From: Escherichia coli
GTDB taxonomy: Bacteria; Pseudomonadota; Gammaproteobacteria; Enterobacterales; Enterobacteriaceae
Length of the DNA: 64,000 bases
NCBI RefSeq assembly: GCF_002854065.1
Contig: NZ_CP024147.1
Reading direction: 5' to 3' (one strand)
Every line of letters begins with the position of its first letter. The stretch's first letter is position 1. This document shows, piece by piece, positions 5,521 to 36,280 of this stretch. The notes beneath the pieces were generated by a model. It was not told the DNA's origin. It was given only the letters and a program-made list of their open reading frames with translations, and did no database searches. The position numbers and the translations under genes are program-made.

Positions 5521-5529
5521 GTGTTGTCC
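5521..5529. repeat. 9-bp target-site duplication GTGTTGTCC (left copy) of IS1 copy 1
   Basis: identical 9-mer at 5521..5529 and 6298..6306 immediately flanking the IS1 ends. Confidence 0.9.
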
Positions 5530-5544
5530 GGTAATGACTCCAAC

Positions 5545-6048
5545 TTATTGATAGTGTTTTATGTTCAGATAATGCCCGATGACTTTGTCATGCAGCTCCA
5601 CCGATTTTGAGAACGACAGCGACTTCCGTCCCAGCCGTGCCAGGTGCTGCCTCAGATTCAGGTTATGCCGCTCAATTCGCTGCGTATATCGCTTGCTGAT
5701 TACGTGCAGCTTTCCCTTCAGGCGGGATTCATACAGCGGCCAGCCATCCGTCATCCATATCACCACGTCAAAGGGTGACAGCAGGCTCATAAGACGCCCC
5801 AGCGTCGCCATAGTGCGTTCACCGAATACGTGCGCAACAACCGTCTTCCGGAGCCTGTCATACGCGTAAAACAGCCAGCGCTGGCGCGATTTAGCCCCGA
5901 CGTATCCCCACTGTTCGTCCATTTCCGCGCAGACGATGACGTCACTGCCCGGCTGTATGCGCGAGGTTACCGACTGCGGCCTGAGTTTTTTAAATGGCGG
6001 AAAATCGTGTTGAGGCCAACGCCCATAATGCGGGCGGTTGCCCGGCAT
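5545..6048 (-). CDS. insB: IS1 InsB frame (transposase made as InsAB' by -1 frameshift)
   Basis: 167-aa [19 protein letters not shown]... identical in both IS1 copies; overlaps insA in the -1 frame. Confidence 0.9.
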
Positions 6049-6242
6049 CCAACGCCATTCATGGCCATATCAATGATTTTCTGGTGCGTACCGGGTTGAG
6101 AAGCGGTGTAAGTGAACTGCAGTTGCCATGTTTTACGGCAGTGAGAGCAGAGATAGCGCTGATGTCCGGCAGTGCTTTTGCCGTTACGCACCACCCCGTC
6201 AGTAGCTGAACAGGAGGGACAGCTGATAGAAACAGAAGCCAC
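5967..6242 (-). CDS. insA: IS1 InsA (zinc-finger transposition inhibitor)
   Basis: 91-aa [42 protein letters not shown] with CxxC...CxxC. Confidence 0.9.
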
Positions 6243-6275
6243 TGGAGCACCTCAAAAACACCATCATACACTAAA

Positions 6276-7037
6276 TCAGTAAGTTGGCAGCATCACCGTG
6301 TTGTCCGTGTTCATACCGGTGTGCCTTTGACAACGGTACTCCTTAGAAACTCTCTTCGGACTGTTGCCGAAATGTTTGCGGAACGCATAAATAAAATAAG
6401 ATGTACTGGCATAACCACATTGTTCGGCAATTTTATTGACTGAACCTTCTACGCGTATCAAATTTTTTGCGTGCTGCATTCTGGCATCTAAAAGAATCTG
6501 TGAGAATGTCGTTTGCTCTTGCTTAAGTTTTTTCTTCAACAGGCTTTCACTGATGTACAGGCAGTCACAAATATCTTTCAGCTTCCATGGGTGCGCCAGC
6601 TTCATGTTGACAATATTTCTCACTTTCCCGGAAACGGATAGCACACCGTTAGTTAATAGTGTAATGAAACCTTTGCATGCGGCAAAAATAGACAGGCAAG
6701 AAAAAAGCAAAAGTTCTGAAAAATTATGATGATTGCGTTCTTCCGAGTTGAGATAAGCAATCATTTCATTAAGCAATCCAGTCGGTACATTAGAAGCACG
6801 TAAAAACTTCGCAGGAACAGGCACCGTCACTGTCTGGATGTTAGTGCATTGTAGATATTTTTTAATGGTATTTTCATTAAATCCGATTTCTTTAAAATGC
6901 CGCTCATAAGGTTCAAAATGCGTACGAACAGCGTTATCTACCATCAGGATCTCGCCGTCAGAGAAGGCGTAATCTTTATCTAAAATGTTAGCGTTGAAGG
7001 CATGATGAATAAATATAACAGAACAAACGAGCGACAT
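6276..7037 (-). CDS. ydeO: AraC-family acid-resistance regulator; last 6 codons and stop supplied by the IS1 terminus
   Basis: 253-aa ORF with C-terminal AraC HTH region; reading frame crosses the IS1 junction at 6297/6298 and ends ...NTVMLPTY inside the IS1 end. Confidence 0.85.
   Translation of the reverse strand: MSLVCSVIFIHHAFNANILDKDYAFSDGEILMVDNAVRTHFEPYERHFKEIGFNENTIKKYLQCTNIQTVTVPVPAKFLRASNVPTGLLNEMIAYLNSEERNHHNFSELLLFSCLSIFAACKGFITLLTNGVLSVSGKVRNIVNMKLAHPWKLKDICDCLYISESLLKKKLKQEQTTFSQILLDARMQHAKNLIRVEGSVNKIAEQCGYASTSYFIYAFRKHFGNSPKRVSKEYRCQRHTGMNTDNTVMLPTY
6298..6306. repeat. 9-bp target-site duplication GTGTTGTCC (right copy) of IS1 copy 1, inside ydeO coding sequence
   Basis: identical to 5521..5529. 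Confidence 0.9.
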
Positions 7038-7111
7038 TTTATCTCCTTAAAACAATAAAGTTTTTATCGATACTTTTTTAACATTTCATATTTATAATTT
7101 GCTGTTTATTT

Positions 7112-7309
7112 TCAGTCTTGCAAACTATTGATAATGAAATGTGTAAGATCTCTTGCAATGCGACCCATTTCTGAAATGCCCAGCTGATCAATTGCCGAAA
7201 AAATGGCTATCAACGTAAGGGTCAGTAATAAGACAACCACAATTACAAACATGATTTCTTTATAGTTGTCTCTTTGCGTGATTTTGTTTTTCACTGTGGT
7301 CGAATGCAT
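7112..7309 (-). CDS. safA: small membrane protein connecting EvgS/EvgA to PhoQ/PhoP
   Basis: 65-aa ORF with one hydrophobic helix FVIVVVLLLTLTLIAIFSAI; immediately upstream of ydeO as in the safA-ydeO operon. Confidence 0.8.
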   Translation of the reverse strand: MHSTTVKNKITQRDNYKEIMFVIVVVLLLTLTLIAIFSAIDQLGISEMGRIARDLTHFIINSLQD

Positions 7310-7556: not shown

Positions 7557-9836
7557 TTAATTTGATGGTTCTAATTCAACCGGAATACTTTTATAGCCAG
7601 GAATGCCACTTAATGGATCGTGGTTATCAAGTGTTAGCATGTGATTCGATTCTGGAAAATAGGTCACCAGTGAGCGGTCAGCCATAGGGTAAATGACCAC
7701 TTTTAATCTATCCATGCGGCGTGAGCTGCGCTTACCGTCTGGCGTAAGCGCAATAAGATTAACTCTTTCGCCGTTTTTTACACGGCAAATTTTAGCTTGT
7801 TTAGCACTCATAAAGACCACATCTCGTTGACCGAATACCCCTCGATAACGATCATCCATACCATAAATCGTCGTGTTGTACTGATCGTGACTGCGTACTG
7901 TCGCCATGACCAGCTTACTGTTAAACGCTGAAGAGGGATCTTCTAACAGCCCTTTGCTGGTAATGAAATTAGCCTTACCTGACGGCGTCATCCAGCGCCT
8001 TTCAGCAGCTGCATTTATCAGGTGAAAACCTCCAGGATGTCGGATGCGCTGGTTATAATCGGCGAACTCTGGCAGCACAGCTTCAATGTCATTGCGAATG
8101 CGATCATAATCTTCCACCAGATACTCCCAGGCTACCACGCTCTGGGGTAGTGCTGCCTGCGCGATTCCCGCGACCACTGCACACTCTGATTTCAGCATTA
8201 CATCGGCGGGTTTTAACACGCCACGCGAGGCATGAATCATCGACATTGAATCCTCAACGGTTACCGCCTGCGCACCGCTTTTTTGCATGTCAATCTCGCT
8301 ACGTCCCAGAACCGGCAGAATATAGCTATGCCGTGCGGTCAGCAGATGAGAGCGGTTAAGCTTAGTGGCTACGTGTACCGCCAGATCTAATTGCGTTAAC
8401 GGTACAGCGCTCGCTTCCCGATCTGGCATTGCCAGTGCAAAGTTGCCCCCCATGCAGATCAATGCTCGAGCCTGCCCTGAACATATTGCTTGCATGCTGG
8501 CAATTGCAGCATGTCCAGGTGCTTGAGGTGGTGTGAAGCCATAGCGCTCACCCAGGCGAGCCAGAAACTCTGCAGACGGTTTCTCGGTGATACCGACGGT
8601 TCGGTCGCCCTGTACATTAGAGTGGCCACGTAGTGGGCAGATACCCGCACCAGGCTTGCCAATGTTACCTTTCATCAACAGCAGATTGACCAGTTGCTGT
8701 ACATTCTGGGTACCATGTTCGTGCTGAGTGATCCCCATTCCGTAACAGATAATGGTGCGTTCGGCAGCGGCATATGCATCAGCCAGTTCGGCGATTTGTG
8801 TCTGACTTAGTCCAGAAATACGTTCGATATCTTTCCACTCGGAATTGAGAACGTCACGGCGTAGCTCGTCAAAGCCGACGGTATGCGTTTGAATAAATTC
8901 GTCATCCAGCAATGAGGGCCGACCTGCGGCACTTGCAGCATCATCGCGCTCAATTAACAGGCGCATCATCCCCTTGAGCAACGCCATATCGCCACCAATG
9001 CGCACGTTGTAGTAGGCACTGGCCAACTGAGTCTCAGAGTTCGTCAGCATTTCAAACGGGTTTTGCGGTGCGGTAAATCGCTCCAGGCCACGTTCCTGTA
9101 GAGGATTGATGGCGATCATTTTCGCTCCCCGTTTCACTAAAGCGCGCAACGAAGTCAGCATGCGAGGGTGGTTTGTACCAGGGTTATGCCCAATGCAAAT
9201 GACTAAATCGCACTTCTCAAAGTCTTCCAGCAACACGGTCCCTTTACCTACACCGATACTCGCTGCCAAACCCACGCTTGTCGGTTCATGGCACATGTTG
9301 GAGCAGTCGGGAAAGTTATTGCTCCCGTATTCACGGGCAAAAAGCTGATAAAGAAAGGCAGCTTCATTGGAAGTGCGGCCCGAAGTATAGAATTCAACCT
9401 GATTGGGATCACTATAGCTTTGAAGGCGTGCGCCAATTTCATTGAAAGCTTGTTGCCAGCTTAATGGCTTGTAACAGTCGCTGACGGCATCATATTTCAA
9501 AGGCTGAGTGAGTCGCCCCGCAGCCTCAAGCTCGTGGTCTCCCCAGGTAAGTAATGATTGAACCGTATTCTCAGCAAAGAAAGAGGCGTTTACCTGCTTA
9601 TCCGTGACTTCCCAGGCGATTGCTTTTGCGCCGTTTTCACAAATGTCGAATGACGCACTGTGCTTAGGATCTGGCCATGCACAACCCGGACAGTCAAAGC
9701 CCTCTGGCTTATTCATGTCAAACATGGCAATAACATCCTGGCGTATATCCATCTGCTTACGTACTGCATTCGCTACGGATTTAACAGCACCCCAACCACC
9801 GGCAGCACCCTGGTAGGATTCAATTTTTTTCTTCAT
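7557..9836 (-). CDS. ydeP: molybdopterin-oxidoreductase-like acid-resistance protein
   Basis: 759-aa ORF; N-terminal Cys cluster CPGCAWPDP and formate-dehydrogenase-like composition. Confidence 0.85.
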
Positions 9837-21839: not shown

Positions 21840-21877
21840 GGGGGAACCGCAGAATTCGGAAAAAATCGTACGCTAAG
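21840..21877. repeat. left terminal inverted repeat GGGGGAACCGCAGAATTCGGAAAAAATCGTACGCTAAG
   Basis: matches the right end in inverted orientation at 35 of 38 positions; whether the first G (21840) belongs to the repeat is ambiguous. Confidence 0.8.
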
Positions 21878-22028
21878 CTAACGGTGTTCTCGTGACAGCT
21901 CTTTGACTAGGCTTTCTAAGGCCATTCTGATAGCCCTGACTTCCTGAAAAGCCATGGCTAAAATTTGTGCGGCTAAAAGGGATAACCGATGGTAAAGTAA
22001 GTTATCCCTGTCGAGATACTGAAAAGCG

Positions 22029-23606
22029 TTATCCTCGTTTTTCCCAAAACTGTTTTGCCAGTTCGCTCAGAGCGCTAGTTAACTGAGCGACAGATTTCGC
22101 ACTTTGCAAATTATTCTGCCCGGTCTGTACATTGGTATCAGCAGCATCGCGTATATTGATAATACTGCGGTTTATGTCTTCACTTACTGCTCCCTGCTGC
22201 TCGACCGCAGTCGCTATTTGCGCGTTCATGTCGGTAATTTCGTTAACGCGTTGGCCAATTCCATCAAGAGCTGTAGCTGCTTCCTCTGCGTGAGCTACAC
22301 TCGTGTGCGCTTGCCGACTACTTTGCTCCATGACTGTAACAGCGGATTGCGCTCGCTCTTGTAGAGCGCTGATCATGCTTTGAATATCCGTTGTCGATTG
22401 CTGTGTGCGAGCAGCAAGACTGCGAACCTCATCGGCGACAACAGCAAAACCACGCCCCTGCTCACCAGCACGCGCGGCCTCAATTGCTGCGTTGAGTGCC
22501 AACAAATTCGTTTGCTCGGCGATCCCTCGTATAACGTCAAGAACTTTTGATATCTCGTTACTTTGACCTTCAAGCTCATGAATAACCTGAGTGGCTTGCC
22601 TAATTTCACCTTCAAGGGCAGTGATTGACTGGCTTGTGTGGGCTACCAGACGCTGGCCAGATGCCGTCTCAGTGTCTGCTCTTCCGGCCGCATCTGCAGC
22701 ATGCTGTGCATTGCTCGCAACCTCTTGAATGCTTGCCACCATTTGGTTTACTGCCGTTGCTATTTGATCTGTCTCTGCCTGCTGCTCAACTGTAAGTACA
22801 TTGCTTGACTCAATATCCTTTAGTAGGCCTCGGGTGTGTTCGCTAAGCCGATTTGATGCATCACCTATGCGACCTACTATGGCGCCTGTTTCAGCTTGCA
22901 TCATTCGTAAAGCAAACTCTATTTGGCCAAACTCATCGGTGCGCCCAGTGTAGAGGGATTGACTTAATGGGTTATTGGAAATATTCCTGGCTCTTTCAAC
23001 CAGTCTTCCAAGAGGAGAGAGAATAGCCAAAACACTAACAGAGCTTAAGCTTCCTGACATTAAAGTGGCTAACAATAAGCTGCTTATTGATGTATCAGTA
23101 AGCATGCCGGCAGCCATTGCGCTTGATATAATACTACCCCATATGAGCAAGAGTATTTTCACGGAAAAGCTAGCAGCCAATTTCGGCCTCGCGGCCTTCC
23201 CGCTTCTCAATTGAGCATATAATTTTTCCGCAGCCAAAACCTGCTCAGGTTCAGGCTTGGTCCTTACAGACTGGTATTCAACAATCGAACCATTCTTAGC
23301 TATTGGCGTTACATAAGCACTTACCCAATAGTGGTCGCCATTTTTACAGCGATTTTTTACTAGCCCCATCCATGAGCGGCCAGATTTTAATGTACTCCAC
23401 ATATGCTCAAATGCAGCAGGCGGCATATCTGGGTGTCTTACGATGTTGTGAGGCTGGCCTAATAGTTCTTCCTCAGTGAAACCACTGATTTTAATGAAGT
23501 CAGGATTAACGTACGTGATATGGCTTTGAGGGGAGGTAGTCGAAAGAATATTGGCATCTTTTGGGAGTTCTAAGTTTCGACCCGTCACTGGTAAATTCTG
23601 GCGCAT
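22029..23606 (-). CDS. Aer-like PAS-domain / methyl-accepting-chemotaxis signalling-domain protein (transposon cargo, orfI)
   Basis: 525-aa ORF; N-terminal PAS block resembling Aer ([37 protein letters not shown]), central hydrophobic segment, C-terminal MCP signalling region [35 protein letters not shown]. Confidence 0.85.
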
Positions 23607-23915
23607 AAGAACCTCAAGGGTTGGCTGTTTTATTTTATTGTTTTCGGCATTAAGCCCAATTTCTTGAGCGTTACGATAAAGCTAGCATGGAAACGATAGG
23701 TGCAAGCAAGTTAAGGGTTGCATCGCGCATGTCAATCTAGGCTATACCCTAACTTGATGTCAGGCAGGGCCGCGCCGCTTCGTCAGAATAGAGTCTGCTT
23801 TCCCATTTTTTGACACATGCCCGCGAAGGTTATAGATTTCAGCCTGACAGAAATGGGCTTTGAGGCACAACGGAACAGAAAGTGCACTTAAGCCGCCTTC
23901 AACCAAGGAGACATC
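23607..23915. promoter_or_regulatory. res (resolution) region with divergent promoters between orfI and tnpR
   Basis: TGTCAGGC...GCCTGACA-type dyads (about 23760..23860) upstream of tnpR, typical placement for Tn21-subgroup res sites; exact subsites not resolved. Confidence 0.5.
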
Positions 23916-24476
23916 GTGCAGGGGCACCGCATCGGCTACGTCCGGGTCAGCAGCTTTGACCAGAACCCGGAACGCCAGCTGGAACAAACCCAGGTGAGCA
24001 AGGTGTTCACCGACAAGGCATCGGGCAAGGACACCCAGCGCCCCCAGCTCGAAGCGCTGCTGAGCTTCGTCCGCGAAGGCGATACAGTGGTGGTGCACAG
24101 CATGGATCGGCTGGCCCGCAACCTCGATGACCTGCGTCGCTTGGTACAGAAGCTGACTCAGCGCGGCGTGCGCATCGAGTTCCTGAAGGAGGGCCTGGTG
24201 TTCACTGGCGAGGACTCGCCGATGGCCAACCTGATGCTGTCGGTGATGGGGGCCTTCGCTGAGTTCGAGCGCGCCCTGATCCGCGAGCGGCAGCGTGAGG
24301 GCATCGCCTTGGCCAAGCAGCGTGGCGCGTACCGGGGCCGCAAGAAAGCCCTGTCCGATGAGCAGGCTGCTACCCTGCGGCAGCGAGCGACGGCCGGCGA
24401 GCCCAAGGCGCAGCTTGCCCGCGAGTTCAACATCAGCCGGGAAACCCTCTACCAGTACCTCCGCACGGACGACTGA
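23916..24476 (+). CDS. tnpR: serine resolvase TnpR
   Basis: 186 aa, GTG start with AAGGAG RBS; catalytic N-terminus IGYVRVSSFDQN and C-terminal HTH. Confidence 0.95.
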   Translation: MQGHRIGYVRVSSFDQNPERQLEQTQVSKVFTDKASGKDTQRPQLEALLSFVREGDTVVVHSMDRLARNLDDLRRLVQKLTQRGVRIEFLKEGLVFTGEDSPMANLMLSVMGAFAEFERALIRERQREGIALAKQRGAYRGRKKALSDEQAATLRQRATAGEPKAQLAREFNISRETLYQYLRTDD

Positions 24477-24479
24477 CAC

Positions 24480-27446
24480 ATGCCGCGTCGCTTGATCCTC
24501 TCGGCCACGGAGCGGGACACCCTGCTTGCGCTGCCGGAAAGCCAGGATGACCTGATCCGCTACTACACCTTCAACGACTCCGACCTGTCGCTGATCCGCC
24601 AGCGACGCGGCGACGCCAACCGCCTCGGCTTCGCCGTGCAGCTCTGCCTGCTGCGCTACCCCGGTTACGCGCTGGGAACCGACAGCGAGCTGCCCGAGCC
24701 GGTCATCCTGTGGGTGGCGAAGCAAGTCCAGGCCGAGCCGGCGAGCTGGGCAAAGTACGGCGAGCGCGACGTGACCCGTCGCGAGCATGCCCAGGAACTG
24801 CGCACCTACCTGCAACTGGCCCCGTTCGGCCTGTCCGACTTCCGCGCCCTGGTGCGCGAGCTAACCGAGCTGGCCCAGCAGACCGACAAAGGCTTGCTGC
24901 TGGCCGGTCAGGCCCTGGAGAGCCTACGGCAGAAACGACGCATCCTGCCGGCGCTGAGCGTGATTGACCGGGCCTGCTCGGAAGCCATTGCGCGAGCCAA
25001 TCGGCGGGTCTACCGCGCCCTGGTCGAACCACTCACGGACTCGCATCGGGCCAAGCTGGACGAGCTGTTGAAGCTCAAGGCCGGCAGCAGCATCACCTGG
25101 TTGACCTGGCTGCGCCAGGCACCGCTGAAACCCAACTCTCGGCACATGCTGGAACACATCGAGCGGCTGAAGACATTTCAGTTGGTGGACTTGCCCGAAG
25201 GCCTGGGCCGGCACATCCACCAGAACCGCCTGCTCAAGCTGGCCCGCGAGGGTGGGCAGATGACGCCCAAAGACCTCGGTAAGTTCGAGCCGCAGCGCCG
25301 CTACGCGACCCTGGCCGCCGTGGTGCTGGAGAGCACCGCGACCGTGATCGATGAGCTGGTCGATCTGCATGACCGCATCCTGGTCAAGCTGTTCAGCGGC
25401 GCGAAGCACAAGCATCAGCAGCAGTTCCAGAAGCAGGGCAAGGCGATCAACGACAAGGTGCGCCTGTACTCCAGGATCGGCCAGGCGCTGCTGGAAGCGA
25501 AGGAAAGCGGCAGCGACCCCTATGCCGCCATCGAGGCGGTGATTCCCTGGGACGAGTTCACCGAGAGCGTCAGCGAGGCCGAGCTGCTGGCCCGGCCGGA
25601 AGGCTTCGACCACCTGCACCTGGTCGGCGAGAACTTCGCCACCCTGCGCCGTTACACGCCGGCCTTGCTGGAGGTGCTGGAACTGCGCGCCGCGCCGGCC
25701 GCGCAAGGCGTGCTGGCAGCCGTGCAGACCCTGCGTGAGATGAACGCCGACAACCTGCGCAAGGTGCCGGCCGATGCACCCACGGCCTTCATCAAGCCGC
25801 GCTGGAAGCCGCTGGTGATCACCCCGGAAGGCCTCGACCGGAAATTCTACGAAATCTGCGCCCTGTCCGAGCTGAAGAACGCCCTGCGCTCCGGCGACAT
25901 CTGGGTCAAGGGCTCGCGGCAGTTCCGCGACTTCGACGACTACCTGCTGCCGGCCGAGAAGTTCGCCGCACTCAAGCGCGAGCAGGCCCTGCCCCTGGCG
26001 ATCAACCCGAACAGCGACCAGTACCTGGAAGAGCGTTTGCAGCTGCTGGACGAGCAGTTGGCCACCGTCACCCGCCTGGCCAAGGACAACGAGCTGCCCG
26101 ATGCCATCCTCACCGAGTCAGGGCTGAAAATCACCCCGCTGGATGCGGCGGTGCCGGATCGGGCGCAGGCGCTGATCGACCAAACCAGCCAGTTACTGCC
26201 GCGCATCAAGATCACCGAACTGCTGATGGACGTGGACGACTGGACGGGCTTCAGCCGCCACTTCACCCACTTGAAGGACGGGGCCGAGGCCAAAGACAGG
26301 ACGTTGCTGCTGTCCGCAATCCTCGGTGATGCGATCAACCTCGGGCTGACCAAGATGGCCGAGTCGAGCCCCGGCCTGACCTACGCCAAGCTGTCCTGGC
26401 TGCAAGCCTGGCACATCCGCGACGAAACCTATTCGGCGGCCTTGGCCGAGCTGGTCAACCACCAGTATCGCCACGCCTTTGCCGCCCACTGGGGCGACGG
26501 CACGACCTCATCCTCCGATGGCCAGTGCTTCCGCGCGGGTGGCCGGGGCGAGAGCACCGGGCACGTCAACCCGAAGTACGGTAGCGAGCCGGGACGGCTG
26601 TTCTATACCCATATCTCCGACCAGTACGCGCCGTTCAGCACCCGCGTGGTGAATGTCGGCGTCCGCGATTCCACCTATGTGCTCGACGGCCTGCTGTACC
26701 ACGAGTCCGACCTGCGGATCGAGGAGCACTACACCGACACGGCCGGCTTCACCGATCACGTCTTTGCCCTGATGCACCTGCTAGGCTTCCGCTTCGCGCC
26801 GCGCATCCGCGACCTCGGCGAAACCAAGCTGTACGTGCCGCAGGGCGTGCAAGCCTACCCGACGTTGCGCCCGCTGATCGGCGGCACCCTGAACATCAAG
26901 CACGTGCGTGCCCACTGGGACGACATCCTGCGCCTGGCCAGCTCGATCAAGCAGGGCACCGTCACCGCCTCGCTGATGCTGCGCAAGCTCGGCAGCTACC
27001 CGCGCCAGAACGGACTGGCCGTGGCCCTGCGCGAGCTGGGCCGGATCGAGCGCACGCTGTTCATCCTGGACTGGCTGCAAAGTGTTGAACTGCGCCGCCG
27101 CGTGCATGCCGGCCTGAACAAAGGTGAGGCGCGCAACTCGCTGGCCAGGGCGGTGTTCTTCAACCGCCTTGGGGAAATCAGGGATCGGAGCTTCGAGCAG
27201 CAGCGCTACCGGGCCAGCGGCCTCAACCTGGTGACGGCGGCTATCGTGCTGTGGAACACGGTGTACCTGGAACGCGCCACCCAGGGGTTGGTCGAGGCCG
27301 GCAAGCCGGTGGACGGCGAGCTGCTGCAATTCCTGTCGCCGCTGGGCTGGGAGCACATCAACCTAACCGGCGATTACGTCTGGCGGCAGAGCCGCAGACT
27401 GGAAGACGGGAAGTTTCGGCCCTTACGGATGCCCGGAAAACCTTAG
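24480..27446 (+). CDS. tnpA: Tn3-family DDE transposase TnpA
   Basis: 988-aa ORF starting 4 bp after the tnpR stop; length and organisation typical of Tn21-subgroup transposases. Confidence 0.95.
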
Positions 27447-27479
27447 CGTACGATTTTTTCCGAATTCTGCGGGCTCCCC
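27442..27479. repeat. right terminal inverted repeat (complement reads GGGGAGCCCGCAGAATTCGGAAAAAATCGTACGCTAAG)
   Basis: inverted copy of the left end; overlaps the last codons of tnpA. Confidence 0.85.
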
Positions 27480-27877
27480 TGTATTGAGTGTTAGTTGGAG
27501 GTGGGAAGGTGTCAATTTGGCTAATTTGCTAATACTTTCGAATTGATAGATTAAAAATTGCATAGTTCTTATTTTATTTAAAAATGAACTATGAGTTATT
27601 GTTGCTTAATAAGAAAACTGTTTCTTTCAATAGGAAAATTATCATCATCATATTTAACAAAGAATGGCACTAATTGCTAAAAATCGAAGTTTATTAAACC
27701 CCTTTTGCATCCATTAATGTCTTTAGGAATATTCGTTATAAAATAAGGGTTATGCTTAATGCTTTAAGAAAAATAGCAATTTCCCCTTGAATATATTACT
27801 GGTGATGGAAGGATGAATCTGCAAGCTGGCATTTAACAAGCCAGTTCTAAAAGAAGGGAAATAAGAATAACTATACT

Positions 27878-27922: not shown

Positions 27923-29515
27923 CTATAACCCAGGCGCTTTCCATAACGACGTCGTCAGTCCATGATCAACCAGCCCCAGCTGATCCTGATAAACTGCCTG
28001 CCACTTATCGCGTGAATCCTGATAAAGTTCATGCTTTTCCGGGTCTGGTGTGTGCGTCCGTTCCCAGCGAACCAGGCGTTCTCCGGTTTCTGCCATTGAT
28101 GAAAAAATTCCGGCACCGACGCCAGCTGCAATGGCACATCCTAATGCAGTGGCTTCTTTGACCACCGGAATATTGACGGGTAATCCCGAGACATCAGCGA
28201 GAATTTGACTCCATAATTTCCCTTTTGAACCTCCGCCTGCAAAGACTAACGATGAAGGATGAATATTCGAGAAATCAGCAATTTGCTGCAAGTTACACGC
28301 TGATACAATCGCCGCATTTTCTTCCAGCGCACGAAACAATGTCGCTTTGTTACATTTATCCGGGTCAATGGATAAGTTAATAAAGGAAGGTGCGGCGTGA
28401 TACCAGGTTTTAAAGCGCATTCTGTCGGAGAATATCGGCATTACGCCCCACGACCCAGGCGGCACCCGACTGGCCATCTCTTCCAGCAGCGTATAGGTGT
28501 CGATGCCTAAACGTTCGGCAATCAGTTTTTCTTCGGCACAGAAAGCATCGCGGAACCAGCGCATGGTGAGTCCGGTAAAAAAGCTTATAGATTCAGCTTG
28601 TACCATGCCAGGAATAACATGGGGATTAACGCGCACGTTCATTTCTGGGTCTGTCACCGGCGCGGCTAAGTTTACAACTTGCTGCCAGAATGTGCCGCCA
28701 AGAACCGCGGTTTGTGCCGGACGCACAACGCCTAACCCCAGGCAACCAAGCTGCACGTCGCCTCCTCCCACGAACACCGGAGTGCCCGCCTTCAGACCGC
28801 AGAGTTCCGCCGCTTGTGAACTTACCACGCCCAGCAATGTGCCGGTTTCTTTGACAGGAGAAAGAATATCGGCACGCAGGCCAGCCATATCCAGCAATGC
28901 AGGTTTCCAGTCACGGATGGTTAGATCAAGAAGTCCCGTGGTGCCAGCGTTAGAGGGATCCACCGCAAGTTCGCCGCTGAGCATATAGGCCAGCCAGTCG
29001 CTGATCATGGTGATGGTTGATGCCTGACGGTAAATATCGGAACGATGGTGCGCCAGCCAAAGTAATCTGGGGATGGCACTTAAAGCCAGCGTTTGTCCGG
29101 TCGCGCGATAAACTTCGTTTTCAAAGGTATTGTTGTGCAGTTCTTTAAGTTCGCTAACTTCGCGCGCCGCTCTGGCATCCACATTGGCGCAGGCCCAGAT
29201 CGGTGTTCCTTCATTGTTATATAAAACAATGCCTTCACGCATCGAACATGCCGAAACGGCAGCGATATACTCCGGGGCTATGCCGGCGTTGTGCAGCGCC
29301 TGGCGCATACACTCACACGCCAGTTGCCAGTTTTTGTTGAGATCAAATTCCATAGAACCAGGAACGTCCGGTACTGCCAGATGCCGCCACTCCGCCTGTC
29401 CCACTGCTATTTGATTGCCTTCCAGGTCGAATATCACAGCCCGAATACTTCCGGTGCCTGCATCCAGCGCCATCAGGTAATACTTTGATTCTGAAGGGGT
29501 AAAGAGTCGAGCCAT
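27923..29515 (-). CDS. lsrK: autoinducer-2 kinase (FGGY carbohydrate kinase family)
   Basis: 530-aa ORF; FGGY-family N-terminus [11 protein letters not shown]; adjacent to lsrR and divergent from the lsr operon. Confidence 0.9.
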
Positions 29516-29593
29516 TAGATTATCCTCGGCTTATGCGTTCTGTCTGTTCCTCTATACGTTCTCCATCATTCCCGGTAATAAGGTCATGCAAAT

Positions 29594-30547
29594 TTAACTA
29601 CGTAAAATCGCCGCTGCTGTGTCCTGATCGGTAACCAGTGCGTTGATATAACCGCCTTTCATTGCAGCGGCAATTGCTTCGGCTTTATTTTCTCCCCCTG
29701 CCACGCCAACCCGGACGGGTATGGTCTTCAGCGCGCTTAAAGGTAAACCAATCAGTTCGTTATGTATTTTAATATCCGTGACAGCGTCACCTTTTGCATC
29801 AAAAAAGTAGCCTAAAATGTCGCCAACCGCCCCTTTTCGGCCAATCATTAACTGTTCGCCCTGGCTGATATAACCGGAGCGAATGATCGTCGCGTCGTCT
29901 TGTTGACTCACGGCCCCAATGCCGACAATCGCCACATCCGCTGCTTGCGCGGCTAACAGAACATCTTTGACGCAATTTTCATTTTTTAGCGTACGGGCAA
30001 TGTCAGCGGAGGATGCCCGCAACGGAGCCGGAATAATATTCACACTGCACGCCGCGTTAAGCTGCCCGATACCCGTCATATAAGAACCGACGCCACCGGA
30101 GAGCGTGACCAGGCGAATTTGCTGTGACGAAATAAAACCACTTAAGCGTTGCAGCGTATTCATGGTTGCCTCGCCAAAACCAATCGCCAGCATCTGTTGT
30201 GGTTGAAGTAAACTCATCAACATATGCGCCGCGCCTATCCCCAGTCGCCCGCCGACATCAGCATCGGCAAGCCCAGGGATCACTCGGACATGTTGCAGCG
30301 AAAACTGACGACGTAATTGTGTTTCATATTCCAGACAGCCTTCAAAGCGAGAATTAATCTGCACGCGAATGATGCCGGACTGATGCCCTTTCTCCAGTAA
30401 TCGCGACACTTTCAAACGGGTCAGGCCGAGACGATCGCTGATCTCACTCTGGGTCAGCCCGTCGTGGTAGTAAAACCACGCGATCCGCGCGACCTGTTCT
30501 TCTTCACACATTCCCTGTTCTGAAATTACCGAATCGTTGATTGTCAT
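29594..30547 (-). CDS. lsrR: SorC-family repressor of the lsr operon
   Basis: 317-aa ORF with N-terminal HTH and sugar-phosphate-binding C-terminal domain. Confidence 0.9.
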
Positions 30548-30615
30548 AATTCATTCTTCACTTTGAACATATTTAAATCTTTAATGCAATTGTTCAGTTC
30601 TTGCGCATTTATATC

Positions 30616-30631
30616 TGTGATGGCAACCACA
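30616..30631. promoter_or_regulatory. candidate CRP site TGTGATGGCAACCACA in the lsrR-lsrA divergent promoter region
   Basis: TGTGA-N6-CCACA resembles the CRP consensus TGTGA-N6-TCACA; the lsr operon is known to be cAMP-CRP dependent. Confidence 0.35.
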
Positions 30632-30795
30632 GTTTGACTCTACGAGCATGAACAAACGCAACCGTGAAAATCAAAATAGCATAAATTGTGATCTATTCGT
30701 CGGAAATATGTGCAATGTCCACCTAAGGTTATGAACAAATTAAAAGCAGAAATACATTTGTTCAAAACTCACCTGCAAAACTGAACGGGGGAAAT

Positions 30796-32330
30796 ATGCA
30801 AACGAGTGATACCCGCGCGTTACCGCTACTTTGCGCCCGCTCGGTTTATAAACAGTATTCAGGGGTTAATGTCCTGAAAGGCATCGATTTTACGTTGCAC
30901 CAGGGGGAGGTCCACGCCCTGTTCGGCGGCAATGGTGCCGGTAAATCGACGTTAATGAAGATTATTGCCGGTATTACCCCTGCTGATAGCGGTACGCTGG
31001 AGATTGGGGGCAACAACTACGTCAGATTAACGCCAGTTCATGCTCATCAGCTGGGTATTTATCTCGTTCCCCAGGAACCGCTGCTTTTCCCAAGCCTGTC
31101 GATAAAAGAAAACATCCTGTTTGGGCTGGCAAAAAAACAGCTCTCCATGCAGAAAATGAAGAACTTGCTGGCGGCGCTGGGCTGCCAGTTTGATCTGCAT
31201 AGTCTGGCAGGATCGCTGGATGTCGCCGATCGCCAAATGGTGGAAATCCTCCGCGGGCTGATGCGCGACTCGCGGATTCTGATCCTCGATGAACCTACCG
31301 CCTCGCTTACCCCTGCGGAAACCGAACGCTTGTTTAGTCGCTTGCAAGAGCTGCTTGCTACTGGCGTGGGTATTGTTTTTATCTCGCATAAGCTGCCGGA
31401 AATTCGCCAGATTGCCGATCGAATTAGCGTGATGCGCGACGGAACCATCGCCTTAAGCGGCAAAACCAGCGAACTGTCTACCGACGACATTATTCAGGCC
31501 ATCACCCCAGCGGTACGGGAAAATCGCTCTCTGCCAGCCAAAAATTATGGCTGGAGTTACCTGGCAACCGCCCACAACATGCCGCAGGAACGTCGGTGCT
31601 GACACTGGAAAATCTGACTGGCGAAGGTTTCAGGAATGTCAGCCTGACGCTAAATGCCGGAGAAATTCTGGGTCTGGCTGGGCTGGTGGGTGCCGGACGC
31701 ACAGAACTGGCCGAGACGCTCTATGGTCTACGTACTTTGCGTGGCGGACGCATTATGCTGAATGATAAAGAGATCAATAGATTATCCACTGGAGAACGTT
31801 TACTGCGCGGTCTGGTTTATCTGCCGGAAGATCGCCAGTCATCCGGACTGAATCTCGATGCTTCGCTGGCCTGGAACGTCTGCGCCCTTACTCATAACCT
31901 TCGTGGATTCTGGGCGAAAACCGCGAAAGATAATGCCACCCTGGAACGTTATCGTCGGGCGCTGAATATTAAATATAACCAACCGGAACAAGCTGCACGG
32001 ACATTATCCGGTGGTAACCAGCAAAAAATCCTGATTGCCAAATGCCTGGAAGCTTCGCCGCAAGTATTGATTGTCGATGAGCCGACGCGCGGCGTGGATG
32101 TCTCGGCGCGTAATGATATCTACCAACTGTTGCGCAGCATCGCCGCACAGAATGTGGCTGTGCTGCTTATCTCCTCTGATCTGGAAGAGATCGAACTGAT
32201 GGCAGATCGTGTGTATGTGATGCATCAGGGCGAAATTACCCACTCTGCACTGACCGGGCGCGATATTAATGTCGAGACTATTATGCGCGTTGCCTTCGGC
32301 GATAGTCAGCGTCAGGAGGCGTCATGCTGA
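30796..32330 (+). pseudogene. lsrA: AI-2 ABC transporter ATPase LsrA, split by a -1 frameshift in an A-run into ORFs 30796..31602 and 31596..32330
   Basis: two ABC ATPase halves (Walker [10 protein letters not shown] and GLVGAGRTE) in different frames; adding one A to the A4 run at 31520..31523 gives a continuous ~511-aa protein. Confidence 0.8.
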
Positions 32331-33352
32331 AGTTTATTCAGAACAACCGTGAAATCACGGCACTGCTGGCGGTGGTGCTGCTGTTTGTATTACCCGGTTT
32401 TCTCGACCGCCAGTATTTAAGTGTGCAAACGCTGACCATGGTTTATAGCAGCGCGCAAATCCTGATCCTGCTGGCAATGGGCGCGACGCTGGTAATGCTT
32501 ACGCGCAATATTGATGTTTCAGTGGGTTCGATTACCGGAATGTGCGCGGTGCTGTTGGGGATGTTACTGAACGCAGGATATTCACTACCTGTTGCCTGTG
32601 TCGCGACTTTACTGCTTGGTTTGCTCGCGGGATTTTTCAACGGTGTCCTGGTCGCGTGGCTAAAGATCCCTGCCATTGTTGCCACCCTTGGCACGTTAGG
32701 GTTGTACAGAGGCATCATGTTGCTGTGGACTGGCGGTAAATGGATTGAAGGGTTACCCGCCGAACTGAAACAACTCTCCGCCCCGCTACTGTTTGGCGTT
32801 TCCGCGATTGGTTGGTTGACGATAATTCTGGTGGCATTTATTGCCTGGCTGCTGGCAAAGACGGCGTTTGGACGCAGTTTTTATGCCACAGGCGATAATT
32901 TACAGGGCGCTCGTCAACTGGGCGTTCGTACGGAAGCCATTCGCATTGTGGCATTTTCGTTGAACGGCTGCATGGCGGCACTGGCGGGAATTGTGTTTGC
33001 TTCGCAGATTGGTTTTATCCCCAACCAGACCGGTACCGGGCTGGAGATGAAAGCAATTGCAGCCTGCGTGCTGGGCGGCATTAGTTTGCTCGGCGGTTCC
33101 GGTGCGATCATCGGTGCGGTACTCGGCGCATGGTTCCTGACGCAGATCGATAGTGTACTGGTGCTGTTGCGCATTCCGGCATGGTGGAACGATTTTATCG
33201 CGGGCCTCGTGCTGCTGGCGGTGCTGGTGTTTGATGGACGCCTGCGTTGCGCGCTGGAACGTAATCTGCGGCGGCAAAAATATGCCCGCTTTATGACGCC
33301 ACCGCCATCCGTTAAACCCGCTTCGTCAGGTAAAAAACGGGAGGCTGCATAA
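32324..33352 (+). CDS. lsrC: AI-2 ABC transporter permease
   Basis: 342-aa polytopic membrane ORF overlapping the lsrA stop. Confidence 0.9.
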
Positions 33353-34344
33353 TGCGTATTCGCTACGGTTGGGAACTGGCTCTTGCCGCACTGCTCGTAA
33401 TTGAGATTGTCGCATTTGGTGCAACTAACCCGCGGATGTTAGACCTCAATATGTTGCTGTTCAGCACCAGTGATTTTATCTGCATTGGCATTGTCGCCCT
33501 ACCGTTGACGATGGTGATTGTCAGTGGCGGGATCGATATTTCGTTTGGTTCGACCATCGGCCTCTGCGCCATTGCATTGGGCGTGCTGTTTCAAAGTGGT
33601 GTGCCGATGCCGCTGGCGATTCTTCTGACCTTACTGCTCGGCGCATTGTGCGGGCTGATCAACGCCGGATTAATTATCTATACCAAAGTTAACCCGCTGG
33701 TGATTACGCTTGGCACGCTGTATCTGTTTGCCGGAAGCGCCCTGCTGCTTTCCGGGATGGCCGGAGCGACGGGGTACGAAGGTATTGGTGGATTCCCGAT
33801 GGCGTTTACAGATTTCGCTAACCTGGATGTGTTGGGGCTCCCCGTTCCGCTGATTATCTTCCTGATATGTCTCCTCGTTTTCTGGCTCTGGCTGCATAAA
33901 ACCCATGCCGGACGTAATGTGTTTTTGATTGGGCAAAGCCCGCGCGTGGCGCTTTATAGCGCGATTCCAGTTAACCGCACCTTATGTGCGCTCTATGCCA
34001 TGACGGGGCTGGCGTCTGCGGTCGCCGCTGTGCTGCTGGTGTCGTATTTTGGTTCAGCACGTTCCGATCTCGGTGCGTCGTTTCTGATGCCCGCCATCAC
34101 CGCCGTGGTGCTTGGCGGTGCCAATATTTATGGTGGTTCCGGTTCCATTATCGGCACCGCCATTGCGGTTTTATTAGTGGGATATTTGCAACAAGGTTTG
34201 CAAATGGCAGGAGTGCCAAATCAGGTGTCCAGCGCCCTTTCCGGTGCGCTACTTATCGTCGTTGTCGTAGGTCGTTCCGTTAGCCTGCATCGCCAGCAAA
34301 TTAAAGAGTGGCTGGCGCGTCGGGCCAATAACCCATTGCCATAA
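33352..34344 (+). CDS. lsrD: AI-2 ABC transporter permease
   Basis: 330-aa polytopic membrane ORF; start overlaps lsrC stop. Confidence 0.9.
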
Positions 34345-34355
34345 AGGATATCTTC

Positions 34356-35378
34356 ATGACACTTCATCGCTTTAAGAAAATCGCCTTACTTAGCGCTCTT
34401 GGCATTGCCGCAATCTCTATGAATGTGCAGGCCGCAGAGCGTATTGCATTTATTCCCAAACTGGTTGGCGTGGGATTTTTTACCAGCGGTGGCAACGGCG
34501 CACAACAAGCGGGTAAAGAGCTGGGCGTTGATGTGACCTACGACGGGCCGACAGAACCCAGTGTTTCTAGTCAGGTACAGTTGATTAATAACTTCGTCAA
34601 TCAAGGTTATAACGCCATTATCGTTTCTGCGGTTTCGCCTGATGGCTTGTGTCCGGCACTGAAACGCGCCATGCAACGTGGTGTGAGAGTGCTGACCTGG
34701 GACTCTGATACTAAACCGGAGTGCCGCTCTTACTACATTAATCAGGGAACTCCCGCCCAGTTGGGAGGTATGTTGGTGGATATGGCGGCGCGTCAGGTGA
34801 ATAAAGACAAAGCCAAAGTCGCGTTTTTCTACTCAAGCCCCACCGTTACGGACCAAAACCAGTGGGTGAAAGAAGCGAAAGCGAAAATCGCCAAAGAGCA
34901 TCCTGGCTGGGAAATTGTCACTACGCAGTTTGGCTATAACGATGCCACTAAATCGTTACAAACCGCAGAAGGAATATTAAAAGCGTATAGCGATCTCGAC
35001 GCCATTATCGCCCCCGATGCCAATGCCCTGCCCGCTGCCGCACAAGCCGCAGAAAACCTGAAAAATGACAAAGTTGCGATTGTCGGATTCAGTACGCCAA
35101 ACGTGATGCGTCCATATGTGGAACGCGGCACGGTGAAAGAATTTGGCCTGTGGGATGTGGTTCAGCAAGGCAAAATTTCAGTTTATGTCGCGGATGCATT
35201 ATTGAAAAAAGGATCAATGAAAACGGGCGACAAGCTGGATATTCAGGGCGTAGGTCAGGTGGAAGTCTCGCCAAACAGCGTCCAGGGCTATGACTACGAA
35301 GCGGATGGTAATGGCATCGTACTGTTACCGGAGCGCGTGATATTCAACAAAGAGAATATCGGCAAATACGATTTCTGA
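34356..35378 (+). CDS. lsrB: periplasmic AI-2 binding protein
   Basis: 340-aa ORF with signal peptide; periplasmic sugar-binding fold. Confidence 0.9.
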
Positions 35379-35404
35379 TGTGCATTACTTAACCGGAGTA
35401 AGTT

Positions 35405-36280
35405 ATGGCAGATTTAGACGATATTAAAGATGGTAAAGATTTTCGTACCGATCAACCGCAAAAAAATATCCCTTTTACCCTGAAAGGTTGCGGTGCGCTG
35501 GATTGGGGAATGCAGTCACGCTTATCGCGGATATTTAATCCGAAAACGGGTAAAACCGTGATGCTGGCTTTTGACCATGGTTATTTTCAGGGACCGACTA
35601 CCGGACTTGAACGCATTGATATAAATATCGCCCCGCTGTTTGAACATGCCGATGTATTAATGTGTACGCGCGGCATTTTGCGCAGCGTAGTTCCCCCTGC
35701 GACCAATAGGCCGGTGGTACTGCGGGCGTCAGGTGCGAACTCTATTCTGGCGGAATTAAGTAATGAAGCCGTGGCGTTATCGATGGATGACGCCGTGCGC
35801 CTGAACAGTTGCGCGGTGGCGGCGCAGGTTTATATCGGAAGCGAATATGAACATCAGTCGATCAAAAATATTATTCAGCTGGTCGATGCCGGAATGAAAG
35901 TGGGAATGCCGACCATGGCCGTGACAGGCGTGGGCAAAGATATGGTGCGCGATCAGCGTTATTTCTCGCTCGCGACTCGAATAGCCGCTGAAATGGGGGC
36001 GCTAATTATCAAAACCTATTATGTCGAAAAAGGTTTTGAACGGATTGTTGCCGGATGTCCGGTACCCATTGTTATTGCTGGCGGTAAAAAATTACCGGAG
36101 CGCGAGGCGCTGGAAATGTGCTGGCAGGCTATCGATCAGGGCGCTTCTGGTGTGGATATGGGGCGTAATATTTTCCAGTCTGACCATCCGGTGGCAATGA
36201 TGAAAGCCGTACAGGCGGTGGTACACCATAACGAAACGGCTGATCGGGCATATGAACTCTATCTGAGTGAAAAACAGTAA
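35405..36280 (+). CDS. lsrF: class I aldolase-like phospho-AI-2 thiolase
   Basis: 291-aa ORF in operon position after lsrB. Confidence 0.85.

What the first reader, a model, noticed from the sequence alone, without database searches (positions are those of the whole stretch)
22029..23606. Transposon cargo is an Aer-like PAS/MCP signal transducer
The 525-aa orfI product has an N-terminal PAS block closely resembling the FAD-binding PAS of the aerotaxis receptor Aer, a hydrophobic membrane anchor, and a C-terminal methyl-accepting-chemotaxis signalling domain. A mobile element carrying a chemoreceptor-like gene could plug into the host Che pathway, and its ligand and function are not obvious from sequence.
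Basis: partly seen in the sequence, partly recalled or inferred. Interest (0 to 1): 0.5.

Follow-up and report, generated by a model that had tools for sequence, protein, structure and literature searches.

The report
Tn1722 transposon's known Aer-like chemoreceptor gene

Summary
Confirmed and already known. Window 22029..23606 (minus strand) is an intact 525-aa ORF with PAS_3, a two-helix membrane hairpin, HAMP and MCPsignal domains. The protein is identical to WP_001323889.1, the orfI/MCP product of Tn1722, the 5.6-kb core of Tn1721 (Allmeier et al. 1992, Gene 111:11). The whole element is here: 38-bp inverted repeats, orfI, res, tnpR and tnpA (21840-27479), no tet module, flanked by TGTATT repeats, in an E. 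coli chromosome beside the lsr operon.

The PAS domain aligns without gaps to E. coli Aer, and every FAD-contact residue checked from the Aer PAS crystal structure is identical. The signalling domain is the 40-heptad Pseudomonas type, not the 36-heptad enterobacterial type.

- A sigma-28 (FliA)-type promoter motif sits upstream of the gene and is conserved in diverged relatives.
- The gene is under strong purifying selection (dN/dS about 0.05), stronger than on tnpR or tnpA.
- Related Aer-family genes are cargo of a second, unrelated Tn3-family lineage.

The most likely function is FAD-based energy taxis through the host CheA/CheW. This probably works best in polar-flagellate hosts, weakly in E. 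coli, and not at all in non-motile Klebsiella. Interest is low.

The parts
21834..21839 (.). Left copy of the flanking direct repeat TGTATT (target-site duplication; the boundary is ambiguous by 1 nt)
   Evidence: Read directly from the sequence
21840..21877 (+). Left 38-bp terminal inverted repeat (IRL) of Tn1722
   Evidence: Matches the IRR with 3 mismatches; 0 matches in 100 shuffles
22029..23606 (-). orfI / mcp: 525-aa Aer-type PAS-HAMP-MCP receptor, identical to WP_001323889.1
23247..23606 (-). N-terminal cap plus PAS domain (residues 1-120) with a conserved FAD pocket
   Evidence: Pfam PAS_3. Gapless alignment to Aer and 8DIK. H53, R57, M69, W70, N85 and R115 identical. dN/dS 0.03
23016..23162 (-). 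Hydrophobic membrane hairpin (residues about 149-197; two helices, 3-4-residue loop)
   Evidence: Hydropathy scan
22872..23027 (-). HAMP domain (residues about 194-245)
   Evidence: Pfam HAMP, E 4.5e-7
22032..22871 (-). Kinase-control (MCP signalling) hairpin, residues 246-525, tip Glu382, 40-heptad length class
   Evidence: Pfam MCPsignal, 7e-44. Aligns to the 40H receptor PcaY with only one compensating 1-residue indel pair. Symmetric 14-residue extras on both arms relative to Aer
23612..23615 (-). Shine-Dalgarno GAGG, 5 nt before the ATG
   Evidence: Read directly from the sequence
23641..23667 (-). Sigma-28 (FliA)-type promoter motif TCAAGAAA-N11-GCCGAAAA, 34 nt upstream of the orfI ATG
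   Evidence: Background for this pattern is 0.0055 per 100 nt. The motif is conserved in L002-L005 and in L007/L009
23607..23915 (.). orfI-tnpR intergenic region holding res and the divergent promoters
   Evidence: Sigma-70-like hexamers in both directions, not above chance. The block TTAGGGTATAGC is shared with the diverged element L002. That it holds res follows from the published Tn1721 organisation (knowledge)
23916..24476 (+). tnpR, serine resolvase, 186 aa
   Evidence: Annotated as WP_001161490.1 in a near-identical copy
24480..27446 (+). tnpA, Tn3-family DDE transposase, 988 aa
   Evidence: Annotated as WP_001138014.1 'Tn3-like element TnAs1 family transposase' in a copy that differs by 1 nt in 5640
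27442..27479 (-). Right 38-bp terminal inverted repeat (IRR)
   Evidence: Exact match to the Tn1721 IR
27480..27485 (.). Right copy of the direct repeat TGTATT

Best explanation
The ORF is orfI (mcp) of Tn1722, the 5.6-kb basic transposon that forms the core of the tetracycline-resistance transposon Tn1721. Here it sits in an E. coli chromosome without the tet module. Its product is an Aer-type energy-taxis transducer. Shown: a cytoplasmic N-terminal PAS domain with the complete FAD pocket of E. coli Aer, a membrane hairpin without a periplasmic sensor, a HAMP domain, and a 40-heptad kinase-control hairpin with a highly conserved CheA/CheW-binding tip. Inferred: the PAS-bound FAD reports the redox state of the respiratory chain, and the signal passes sideways to HAMP and then to the tip, where it modulates the host's CheA through CheW. 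Also inferred: the gene is transcribed from a FliA (sigma-28) class-3-type promoter. On that reading the transposon needs no regulator of its own, and the receptor is made only in cells that are already building flagella and Che proteins. The receptor lineage comes from Pseudomonas-like gammaproteobacteria. It should fit natively into 40H arrays (Pseudomonas, Aeromonas, Vibrio, Shewanella). In 36H E. coli arrays it should couple only weakly or interfere. In non-motile hosts such as Klebsiella it is inert cargo.
For: Identity:
- 100% aa identity to WP_001323889.1.
- Megablast at about 99.9% to more than 5000 plasmid records, with the same MCP-recombinase-transposase features under the listed hits.
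- Inverted repeats and flanking repeats are present.
- The literature names Tn1722's MCP and Allmeier 1992.

Aer type:
- Domain hits and matches to Aer structures at 2.8e-65 and 9e-41.
- Gapless PAS alignment with all FAD contacts conserved.
- Hydrophobic hairpin.

40H class:
- PcaY, stated to be type 40H, aligns over residues 193-519 with only one compensating 1-residue indel pair.
- Relative to Aer there are 14 extra residues per arm, and the C-arm is 144 vs 126 residues.

Functional constraint:
- dN/dS is 0.05 against an 89%-identical copy in a diverged Tn1722-like element, at dS of about 1.2.
- It is lowest in the PAS domain (0.03) and the signalling domain (0.05), compared with tnpR 0.13 and tnpA 0.24-0.39.

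FliA promoter:
- The motif lies at the same position in three diverged upstream regions, and the E. coli aer control also scores.
- Background for the pattern is 0.0055 per 100 nt.

Coupling to the E. coli Che system:
- The tip segment [39 protein letters not shown] is 32/39 identical to Aer, counted by hand from the alignment.
- Overexpression interferes with chemotaxis, as reported of Allmeier 1992 in PMC5756416.
- The 40H receptors McpT and PcaY work weakly in E. coli.

Origin:
- The closest non-transposon relatives, at 60-83% identity, are annotated by their source records as Pseudomonas, Marinomonas and Hahella receptors.
Against: - No experiment shows FAD binding or aerotaxis for this protein. 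The only reported phenotype is interference on overexpression, and I have it second-hand.
- The sigma-28 motif has one mismatch in each element and is untested. The generic sigma-70 scan was not above chance.
- The 40H/36H mismatch predicts poor integration in E. coli.
- Of 818 complete E. coli genomes with some of the gene, only 511 have at least 80% of it.
- The commonest plasmid host genus is Klebsiella (962 of 1869 records). From knowledge, Klebsiella lacks flagella. So in enterics the gene is clearly not maintained for function.
- Canonical Glx-Glx methylation motifs are degenerate, so the mode of adaptation is unknown.
Confidence: 0.7

Rival explanations
1. It is a pure hitch-hiker. The receptor has no function in the hosts where it is now found. 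It persists only because it lies between IRL and res, inside a very successful transposon spread by tetracycline and multidrug selection.
For: - Copies are nearly clonal: 946 of 968 E. coli records are at least 99% identical, and there is 1 nt difference in 5640 bp between two chromosomal copies. Spread is therefore recent and cannot show selection.
- About 40% of E. coli records carry only truncated copies.
- Klebsiella is the main plasmid host.
- The length class is foreign to enterobacteria.
Against: Across older divergence, with dS around 1.2, the gene is the most constrained part of the element (dN/dS 0.05). Its FliA-type promoter motif is also kept. So it was functional in the hosts where the lineage evolved. 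'No function in this E. coli' and 'functional receptor elsewhere' are compatible.
Confidence: 0.2
2. It is a chemotaxis modulator or interferer. The receptor does not provide useful taxis. Instead it perturbs host arrays, locking CheA on or off or titrating CheW. That would change swimming bias or promote settling, which could favour plasmid or transposon transfer.
For: - Overexpression was reported to interfere with chemotaxis (citing Allmeier 1992).
- A 40H receptor in 36H arrays is expected to fit poorly.
Against: - Overexpression of many native receptors also jams chemotaxis (knowledge), so the phenotype is not specific.
- The intact FAD pocket is under the strongest constraint of any region (PAS dN/dS 0.03), which argues for real sensing rather than mere titration.
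Confidence: 0.07
3. It signals to a non-flagellar output, such as a c-di-GMP or Wsp/Che2-like pathway, rather than to flagellar chemotaxis.
For: Chromosomal relatives sit next to GGDEF-EAL proteins (L006, L013) or a hybrid kinase plus an HD-GYP response regulator (L016, L019). One transposon copy carries an HD-GYP gene behind the receptor (L014).
Against: - Tn1722 carries the receptor alone.
- The motif upstream is a flagellar sigma-28-type promoter.
- From knowledge, Aer homologues of this architecture in P. aeruginosa and P. putida mediate flagellar energy taxis. The Pseudomonas Aer survey points the same way.
Confidence: 0.03

Closest known systems
orfI / MCP of Tn1721-Tn1722 (Allmeier, Cresnar, Greck & Schmitt 1992, Gene 111:11-20; RefSeq WP_001323889.1)
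   Same: Identical protein. Same element organisation, IRL-orfI-res-tnpR-tnpA-IRR, and the same 38-bp inverted repeats.
   Different: Nothing in the gene differs. This copy is the bare Tn1722 without the tetR/tetA module of Tn1721, and it is chromosomal, lying 94 nt upstream of an ESPR autotransporter gene.
E. coli aerotaxis receptor Aer (b3072; PDB 8DIK for the PAS domain, 31cj for full length)
   Same: The same PAS / membrane hairpin / HAMP / kinase-control architecture. The PAS domains align without gaps (63/119 identical) and the FAD contacts are identical. The hairpin tip is about 82% identical. A sigma-28-type motif lies upstream of both genes.
   Different: - Overall similarity is low outside the PAS domain and the tip: F1, TM and HAMP are 3-9 identities per segment.
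- The signalling domain is 40H rather than 36H, with 14 extra residues per arm.
- It is carried on a mobile element rather than in the core genome.
Pseudomonas Aer family (Aer.g1-g5 of Booth & Turner, bioRxiv 10.1101/081455; P. aeruginosa and P. putida Aer)
   Same: These are the closest non-transposon relatives, at 60-83% identity over the full length and the same size of about 525 aa. That survey already noted horizontal transfer and neighbouring mobile elements for some aer homologues. The length class matches that of the Pseudomonas receptor PcaY.
   Different: The Tn1722 gene has been cut loose from its native neighbours (GGDEF-EAL or HK/HD-GYP genes). It travels inside a Tn3-family element into enterobacteria.
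Other transposon- or plasmid-borne chemoreceptors: McpT of TOL-type plasmids in Tn4653-like elements, and the plasmid-borne receptors of E. coli/Shigella (Borziak et al. 2013, J Bacteriol 195:3596)
   Same: These are chemoreceptor genes moved by Tn3-family elements or plasmids. McpT is also 40H and works only weakly in E. coli.
   Different: McpT is described as the receptor for toluene, whereas orfI has a cytoplasmic FAD-type PAS domain. The Borziak paper could not be read here, so I could not verify whether it treats this exact gene.

Membership tests
Aer-type energy-taxis transducers | N-terminal cytoplasmic PAS domain homologous to Aer PAS | tested here: met
   PAS_3, E 4e-17. 8DIK, E 9e-41. 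Gapless alignment, 63/119 identical.
Aer-type energy-taxis transducers | FAD-pocket residues (Aer H53, R57, M69, W70, N85, R115) conserved | tested here: met
   All are identical at the same positions. The residue list comes from PMC9668731.
Aer-type energy-taxis transducers | No periplasmic ligand-binding domain; central hydrophobic hairpin anchors the protein | tested here: met
   Only two hydrophobic segments, about 149-171 and 175-197, separated by TDTS.
Aer-type energy-taxis transducers | HAMP domain followed by an MCP signalling hairpin with a conserved tip | tested here: met
   HAMP 4.5e-7 and MCPsignal 7e-44. Tip motif [16 protein letters not shown].
Aer-type energy-taxis transducers | Binds FAD and mediates aerotaxis or energy taxis | not testable with these tools
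   This needs biochemistry and behavioural assays. The only reported phenotype is chemotaxis interference on overexpression.
Enterobacterial 36H receptor class (E. coli Aer orthologue) | 36-heptad signalling domain | tested here: not met
   C-arm of 144 vs 126 residues, and 14-residue extras on each arm. The domain aligns to 40H PcaY with only one compensating 1-residue indel pair. It is therefore not an orthologue of E. coli aer, only a family relative.
Tn3-family transposon Tn1722 (core of Tn1721) | 38-bp terminal inverted repeats of the Tn1721 type | tested here: met
   21840-21877 (3 mismatches) and 27442-27479 (exact).
Tn3-family transposon Tn1722 (core of Tn1721) | tnpR resolvase and tnpA DDE transposase, with res between orfI and tnpR | tested here: met
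   ORFs of 186 and 988 aa. The copy in L012, which differs by 1 nt, is annotated WP_001161490.1 / WP_001138014.1. The res subsites were not mapped.
Tn3-family transposon Tn1722 (core of Tn1721) | Short target-site duplication | tested here: met
   TGTATT on both sides. This is 6 bp rather than the usual 5, within a 1-nt boundary ambiguity.
Tn1721 (composite tetracycline-resistance form) | tetR-tetA module and a third IR beyond tnpA | tested here: not met
   Only two IR copies are in the window. Host sequence (lsrK side) starts at 27480.

The most novel reading that the evidence does not exclude
Aer-type energy-taxis receptors may be a repeatedly recruited, self-sufficient 'behavioural' cargo of Tn3-family transposons rather than a one-off accident in Tn1721.

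- In the Tn1722 lineage the receptor co-diverged with tnpR and tnpA and is the most constrained gene (dN/dS 0.05).
- A second, unrelated lineage has the layout tnpR / RHH_6-PIN_3 toxin-antitoxin / tnpA / mcp. Its TnpA is only 30% identical to that of Tn1722, and it has 117-nt inverted repeats.
- Copies of this second lineage whose TnpA are 91% identical carry two different Aer-family genes, 72.5% identical to each other. Each gene is closer to a different non-transposon aer.
- The element occurs with four different right flanks and, in one case, a clean 5-bp target duplication.
- A FliA-type promoter motif lies upstream of the receptor in the Tn1722 lineage and in one of the two cargo variants of the second lineage (L007/L009, not L014). 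This would make the receptor plug-and-play in any flagellated host.

If real, it means selection favours transposons that alter where their host swims.
Probability: 0.3. Interest if true: 0.45.

Novelty: already known. Interest (0 to 1): 0.15.

Why it matters
As a finding it matters little. The gene was sequenced and recognised as a chemotaxis-type protein in 1992, is routinely annotated, and sits in roughly 15% of complete E. coli genomes and about 2.6% of PLSDB plasmids as baggage of a resistance transposon.

Its residual value is as an unexploited natural experiment. A redox-sensing receptor of foreign length class, apparently wired to the host flagellar sigma factor, has been introduced into thousands of enteric strains. 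Nobody appears to have tested whether it binds FAD, supports energy taxis, or changes gut or biofilm behaviour at native expression. The recurrent capture of Aer-family genes by unrelated Tn3-family transposons hints at selection for behaviour-modifying cargo, which would be a modest but real addition to how transposon passenger genes are viewed.

Tried and rejected
- **Primary papers.** Allmeier 1992 (by DOI) and Borziak 2013 (PMC3754581) are not held. I relied on citing papers.
- **Literature on Aer and Tn1721.** Searches linking Tn1721 with Aer, aerotaxis, PAS, TnAs1 or Tn1722 found no functional study of this receptor. The 2026 aerotaxis review does not mention transposons, plasmids or heptad classes.
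- **Tn4651/Tn5041 orfQ.** I recalled that this might be another PAS-MCP. The searches gave nothing to verify it, so I do not use it.
- **Sigma-70 scan.** The generic promoter and terminator scan of 21800-24000 was not above the shuffled expectation. I do not claim the sigma-70-like hexamers as promoters.
- **Methylation sites.** A strict Glx-Glx-x-x-A-S/T search gave only EEAATA at residue 441 and an irrelevant hit at 121. EEAATA lies about 60 residues from the tip, which is not the usual methylation-helix position. The result is inconclusive.
- **P0050 in plasmids.** A tblastn of P0050 against PLSDB, meant to find named copies of the second transposon, returned only Tn1721-type genes at 77% identity. 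That lineage is therefore absent from the collection.
- **TnAs1 label.** I rejected filing the element as TnAs1. TnAs1 proper is a chimera that lacks the MCP, and PGAP's 'TnAs1 family transposase' is only a family label.
- **E. coli aer orthology.** I rejected calling the gene an E. coli aer orthologue or duplicate, because the length class differs and similarity outside the PAS domain and the tip is low.
- **Not run.** I did not run structure prediction or a genome-contig scan. The sequence-level evidence was already decisive for the question asked.

Full report
**Observation.**
- The window holds an uninterrupted ATG-initiated ORF at 22029..23606 on the minus strand, 525 aa with the stop codon included.
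- Pfam detects PAS_3 at residues 31-114 (E 4e-17), HAMP at 194-239 (4.5e-7) and MCPsignal at 325-486 (7e-44).
- NCBIfam gives only sub-threshold hits to named receptors. The best is the signalling half of the P. aeruginosa receptor CtpM. The generic PAS 'sensory_box' domain model scores above its cut-off.
- A hydropathy scan finds just two hydrophobic stretches, about 149-171 and 175-197, separated by TDTS. This is a membrane hairpin with no periplasmic domain.

**What the element is.**
- The 38-bp Tn1721-type terminal repeats occur exactly twice in the window, at 21840-21877 (3 mismatches) and 27442-27479 (exact). None are expected by chance.
- Between them lie orfI (minus strand), a 309-bp intergenic region, tnpR (23916-24476) and tnpA (24480-27446).
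- The 5640-bp unit is flanked by TGTATT on both sides. There is no tet module and no third IR. This is the basic transposon Tn1722, not the composite Tn1721.
- Megablast finds the region at about 99.9% identity in more than 5000 plasmid records. The features under the listed hits are 'PAS domain-containing methyl-accepting chemotaxis protein', 'recombinase family protein' and 'Tn3-like element TnAs1 family transposase'. One record calls the gene 'aer: aerotaxis receptor'.
- The window protein is identical to WP_001323889.1. The whole element differs by one nucleotide from a chromosomal copy in E. coli CUPF12.
- The host context is an E. coli chromosome. The IRL lies 94 nt upstream of the start codon (21746) of an ESPR/ECSE_1600 autotransporter gene that IS1 also splits (about 20454-21221). 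The IRR faces lsrK and the lsr operon.

**Known status.**
[quoted passage not shown] It also notes that TnAs1 proper is a chimera lacking the MCP.
- A Pseudomonas Aer survey cites Borziak et al. 2013 for horizontally transferred chemoreceptors on E. coli/Shigella plasmids.
- I could read neither primary paper.
- The finding is thus a rediscovery of a long-annotated gene.

**How Aer-like it is.**
- phmmer against PDB sequences gives full-length E. coli Aer at 2.8e-65 and the Aer PAS crystal structure 8DIK at 9e-41.
- A pairwise alignment with MG1655 Aer (fetched) is gapless over residues 1-135, with 63/119 identities in the PAS domain.
- The 8DIK paper names the flavin contacts:
  - N85 hydrogen-bonds to O4 and N3.
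  - H53 pi-stacks on the isoalloxazine ring.
  - R115 lies near N5.
  - R57 makes a salt bridge to the pyrophosphate.
  - W70 and M69 pack against the adenine.
  - S28 lies nearby.
- All are identical at the same numbering in the Tn1722 protein. So are H58, D60, Y93 and Y111.
- FAD-based redox sensing is therefore the most likely input. This is inferred, not shown.

**Length class and origin.**
- Outside the PAS domain and the hairpin tip, similarity to E. coli Aer is poor.
- The alignment needs 14 extra residues on each arm of the signalling hairpin. The tip Glu is at 382 and the C-arm is 144 residues against 126 in Aer.
- The domain aligns over residues 193-519 to P. putida PcaY with only one compensating 1-residue indel pair. 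PcaY is described as a type 40H receptor.
- Enterobacterial receptors are 36H, with a few 24H.
- The closest relatives outside transposons are 60-83% identical 525-aa proteins that their source records assign to Pseudomonas, Marinomonas, Hahella and related genera.
- The gene is therefore a Pseudomonas-like Aer homologue, not an orthologue of E. coli aer.
- Heterologous 40H receptors do signal in E. coli, but weakly. The CheA/CheW-binding tip is about 82% identical to Aer (counted by hand from the alignment).

**Expression.**
- A GAGG Shine-Dalgarno sequence precedes the ATG.
- At 23667..23641 on the minus strand, 34 nt before the ATG, lies TCAAGAAA-N11-GCCGAAAA. This is close to the sigma-28 consensus TAAAGTTT-N11-GCCGATAA (consensus from knowledge).
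- The same motif occurs at the equivalent place in a diverged Tn1722-like element (TAAAGAAA-N11-GCCGATAT, 29 nt from the ATG).
- It also occurs in an unrelated Tn3-subgroup element that carries a related receptor (TTAAGAAA..GCCGATTA, 36 nt).
- The surrounding sequence has diverged in all three. The E. coli aer upstream region, used as a positive control, also scores.
- The pattern occurs 7 times in 128 kb of window sequence, which is 0.0055 per 100 nt.
- I infer FliA-dependent transcription, which would tie the cargo to the host flagellar regulon. This is untested.

**Selection and distribution.**
- Against the 89%-identical gene in a Tn1722-like element (TnpR 86% and TnpA 73% identical; same mcp-res-tnpR-tnpA layout), orfI has dS 1.17, dN 0.061 and dN/dS 0.05.
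- By region, dN/dS is 0.03 in the PAS domain and 0.05 in the signalling domain. It is 0.13 for tnpR and 0.24-0.39 for tnpA.
- The receptor was therefore functional while the lineage diverged.
- In present-day enterics the picture is one of hitch-hiking:
  - 818 of 5426 complete E. coli genomes contain some of the gene, but only 511 have at least 80% of it.
  - Copies are almost clonal, and 834 of 1063 places are on plasmids.
  - Among 1869 PLSDB plasmids with the gene, Klebsiella leads with 962, ahead of Escherichia with 571. From knowledge, Klebsiella is non-motile.

**Beyond the finding.**
- A 77%-identical receptor (P0050) lies downstream of tnpA in a different Tn3-family element. Its layout is long resolvase, RHH_6/PIN_3 toxin-antitoxin, then a 997-aa TnpA only 30% identical to the Tn1722 TnpA. 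It has 117-nt inverted repeats at L007 3037-3153 and 9803-9919.
- That organisation matches the Tn5563/Tn5046 group described for TA-bearing Tn3 transposons.
- The element has four different right-hand flanks (L007-L010) and a clean 5-bp duplication, GGCTT, in L007.
- A sister copy (L014) has TnpA 91% identical, but its receptor (P0058) is only 72.5% identical to P0050. P0058 is 83-90% identical to receptors that their sources label P. aeruginosa, one of them (P0069) on a 2.3-Mb contig. An HD-GYP gene follows P0058 inside the IR.
- An unsupported NJ tree places the three transposon receptors in different sub-clades.
- Native contexts of relatives include GGDEF-EAL or hybrid-kinase/HD-GYP neighbours.
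- This suggests at least three captures of Aer-family genes by Tn3-family transposons. I treat that as a lead, not a result.

**Verdict.** The best-supported mechanism is an FAD-PAS energy-taxis receptor that borrows the host's FliA and CheA/CheW. It would be native to 40H arrays, marginal in E. coli, and inert in non-motile hosts. Interest is low at 0.15. The only modestly novel angle is the recurrent, promoter-equipped recruitment of such receptors by transposons.

Noticed in passing
window 23641-23667 (minus strand); L002 about 7945-7972; L007 about 7938-7965: A sigma-28 (FliA)-type promoter motif is conserved 29-36 nt upstream of the receptor ATG in Tn1722, in a diverged Tn1722-like element and in an unrelated Tn3-subgroup element. 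Background for the pattern is 0.0055 per 100 nt.
   Followed up: partly
L007 3037-9919 (also L008, L009, L010, L014): A second Tn3-family lineage (long resolvase, RHH_6/PIN_3 toxin-antitoxin, TnpA 30% identical to the Tn1722 TnpA, 117-nt inverted repeats) carries Aer-family receptors downstream of tnpA. Copies with 91%-identical TnpA carry receptors only 72.5% identical to each other. L007 has a 5-bp target duplication, GGCTT. L014 also carries an HD-GYP gene as cargo.
   Followed up: partly
window 20454-21221 and 15549-21746: An IS1 copy splits a large ESPR/ECSE_1600-family autotransporter gene (N-terminal fragment 21746..21222, remainder 20420..15549). Tn1722 sits 94 nt upstream of its start codon. 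Another E. coli strain (CUPF12, L012) has Tn1722 inside the same gene at a different site.
   Followed up: partly
window 21834-21839 / 27480-27485; L012 flanks of 1508-7147: The direct repeat flanking Tn1722 is 6 bp (TGTATT) here and only 4 bp (TAAT) in the CUPF12 copy, instead of the canonical 5 bp for Tn3-family elements. A 1-nt ambiguity at the IR ends may explain the 6-bp case, but it does not explain the 4-bp one.
   Followed up: no
L002 4209-7175: The tnpA of the diverged Tn1722-like element in metagenome contig SRR29709805_7690 is split into two ORFs, with 2 stops in the single-frame translation of the span. Its receptor gene and tnpR remain intact.
   Followed up: no
L006 1074-4825; L013 4631-8575; L016 and L019 7001-13400: Chromosomal relatives of the receptor are consistently adjacent to c-di-GMP turnover genes: GGDEF-EAL or protoglobin-PAS-GGDEF-EAL upstream, or a hybrid histidine kinase plus an HD-GYP response regulator downstream. 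This hints at a link between this Aer clade and c-di-GMP signalling.
   Followed up: no
window 27923-36280: The complete lsr (autoinducer-2 uptake) locus, lsrK-lsrR and lsrACDBFG-like ORFs, lies immediately to the right of the transposon. It looks ordinary for E. coli.
   Followed up: no
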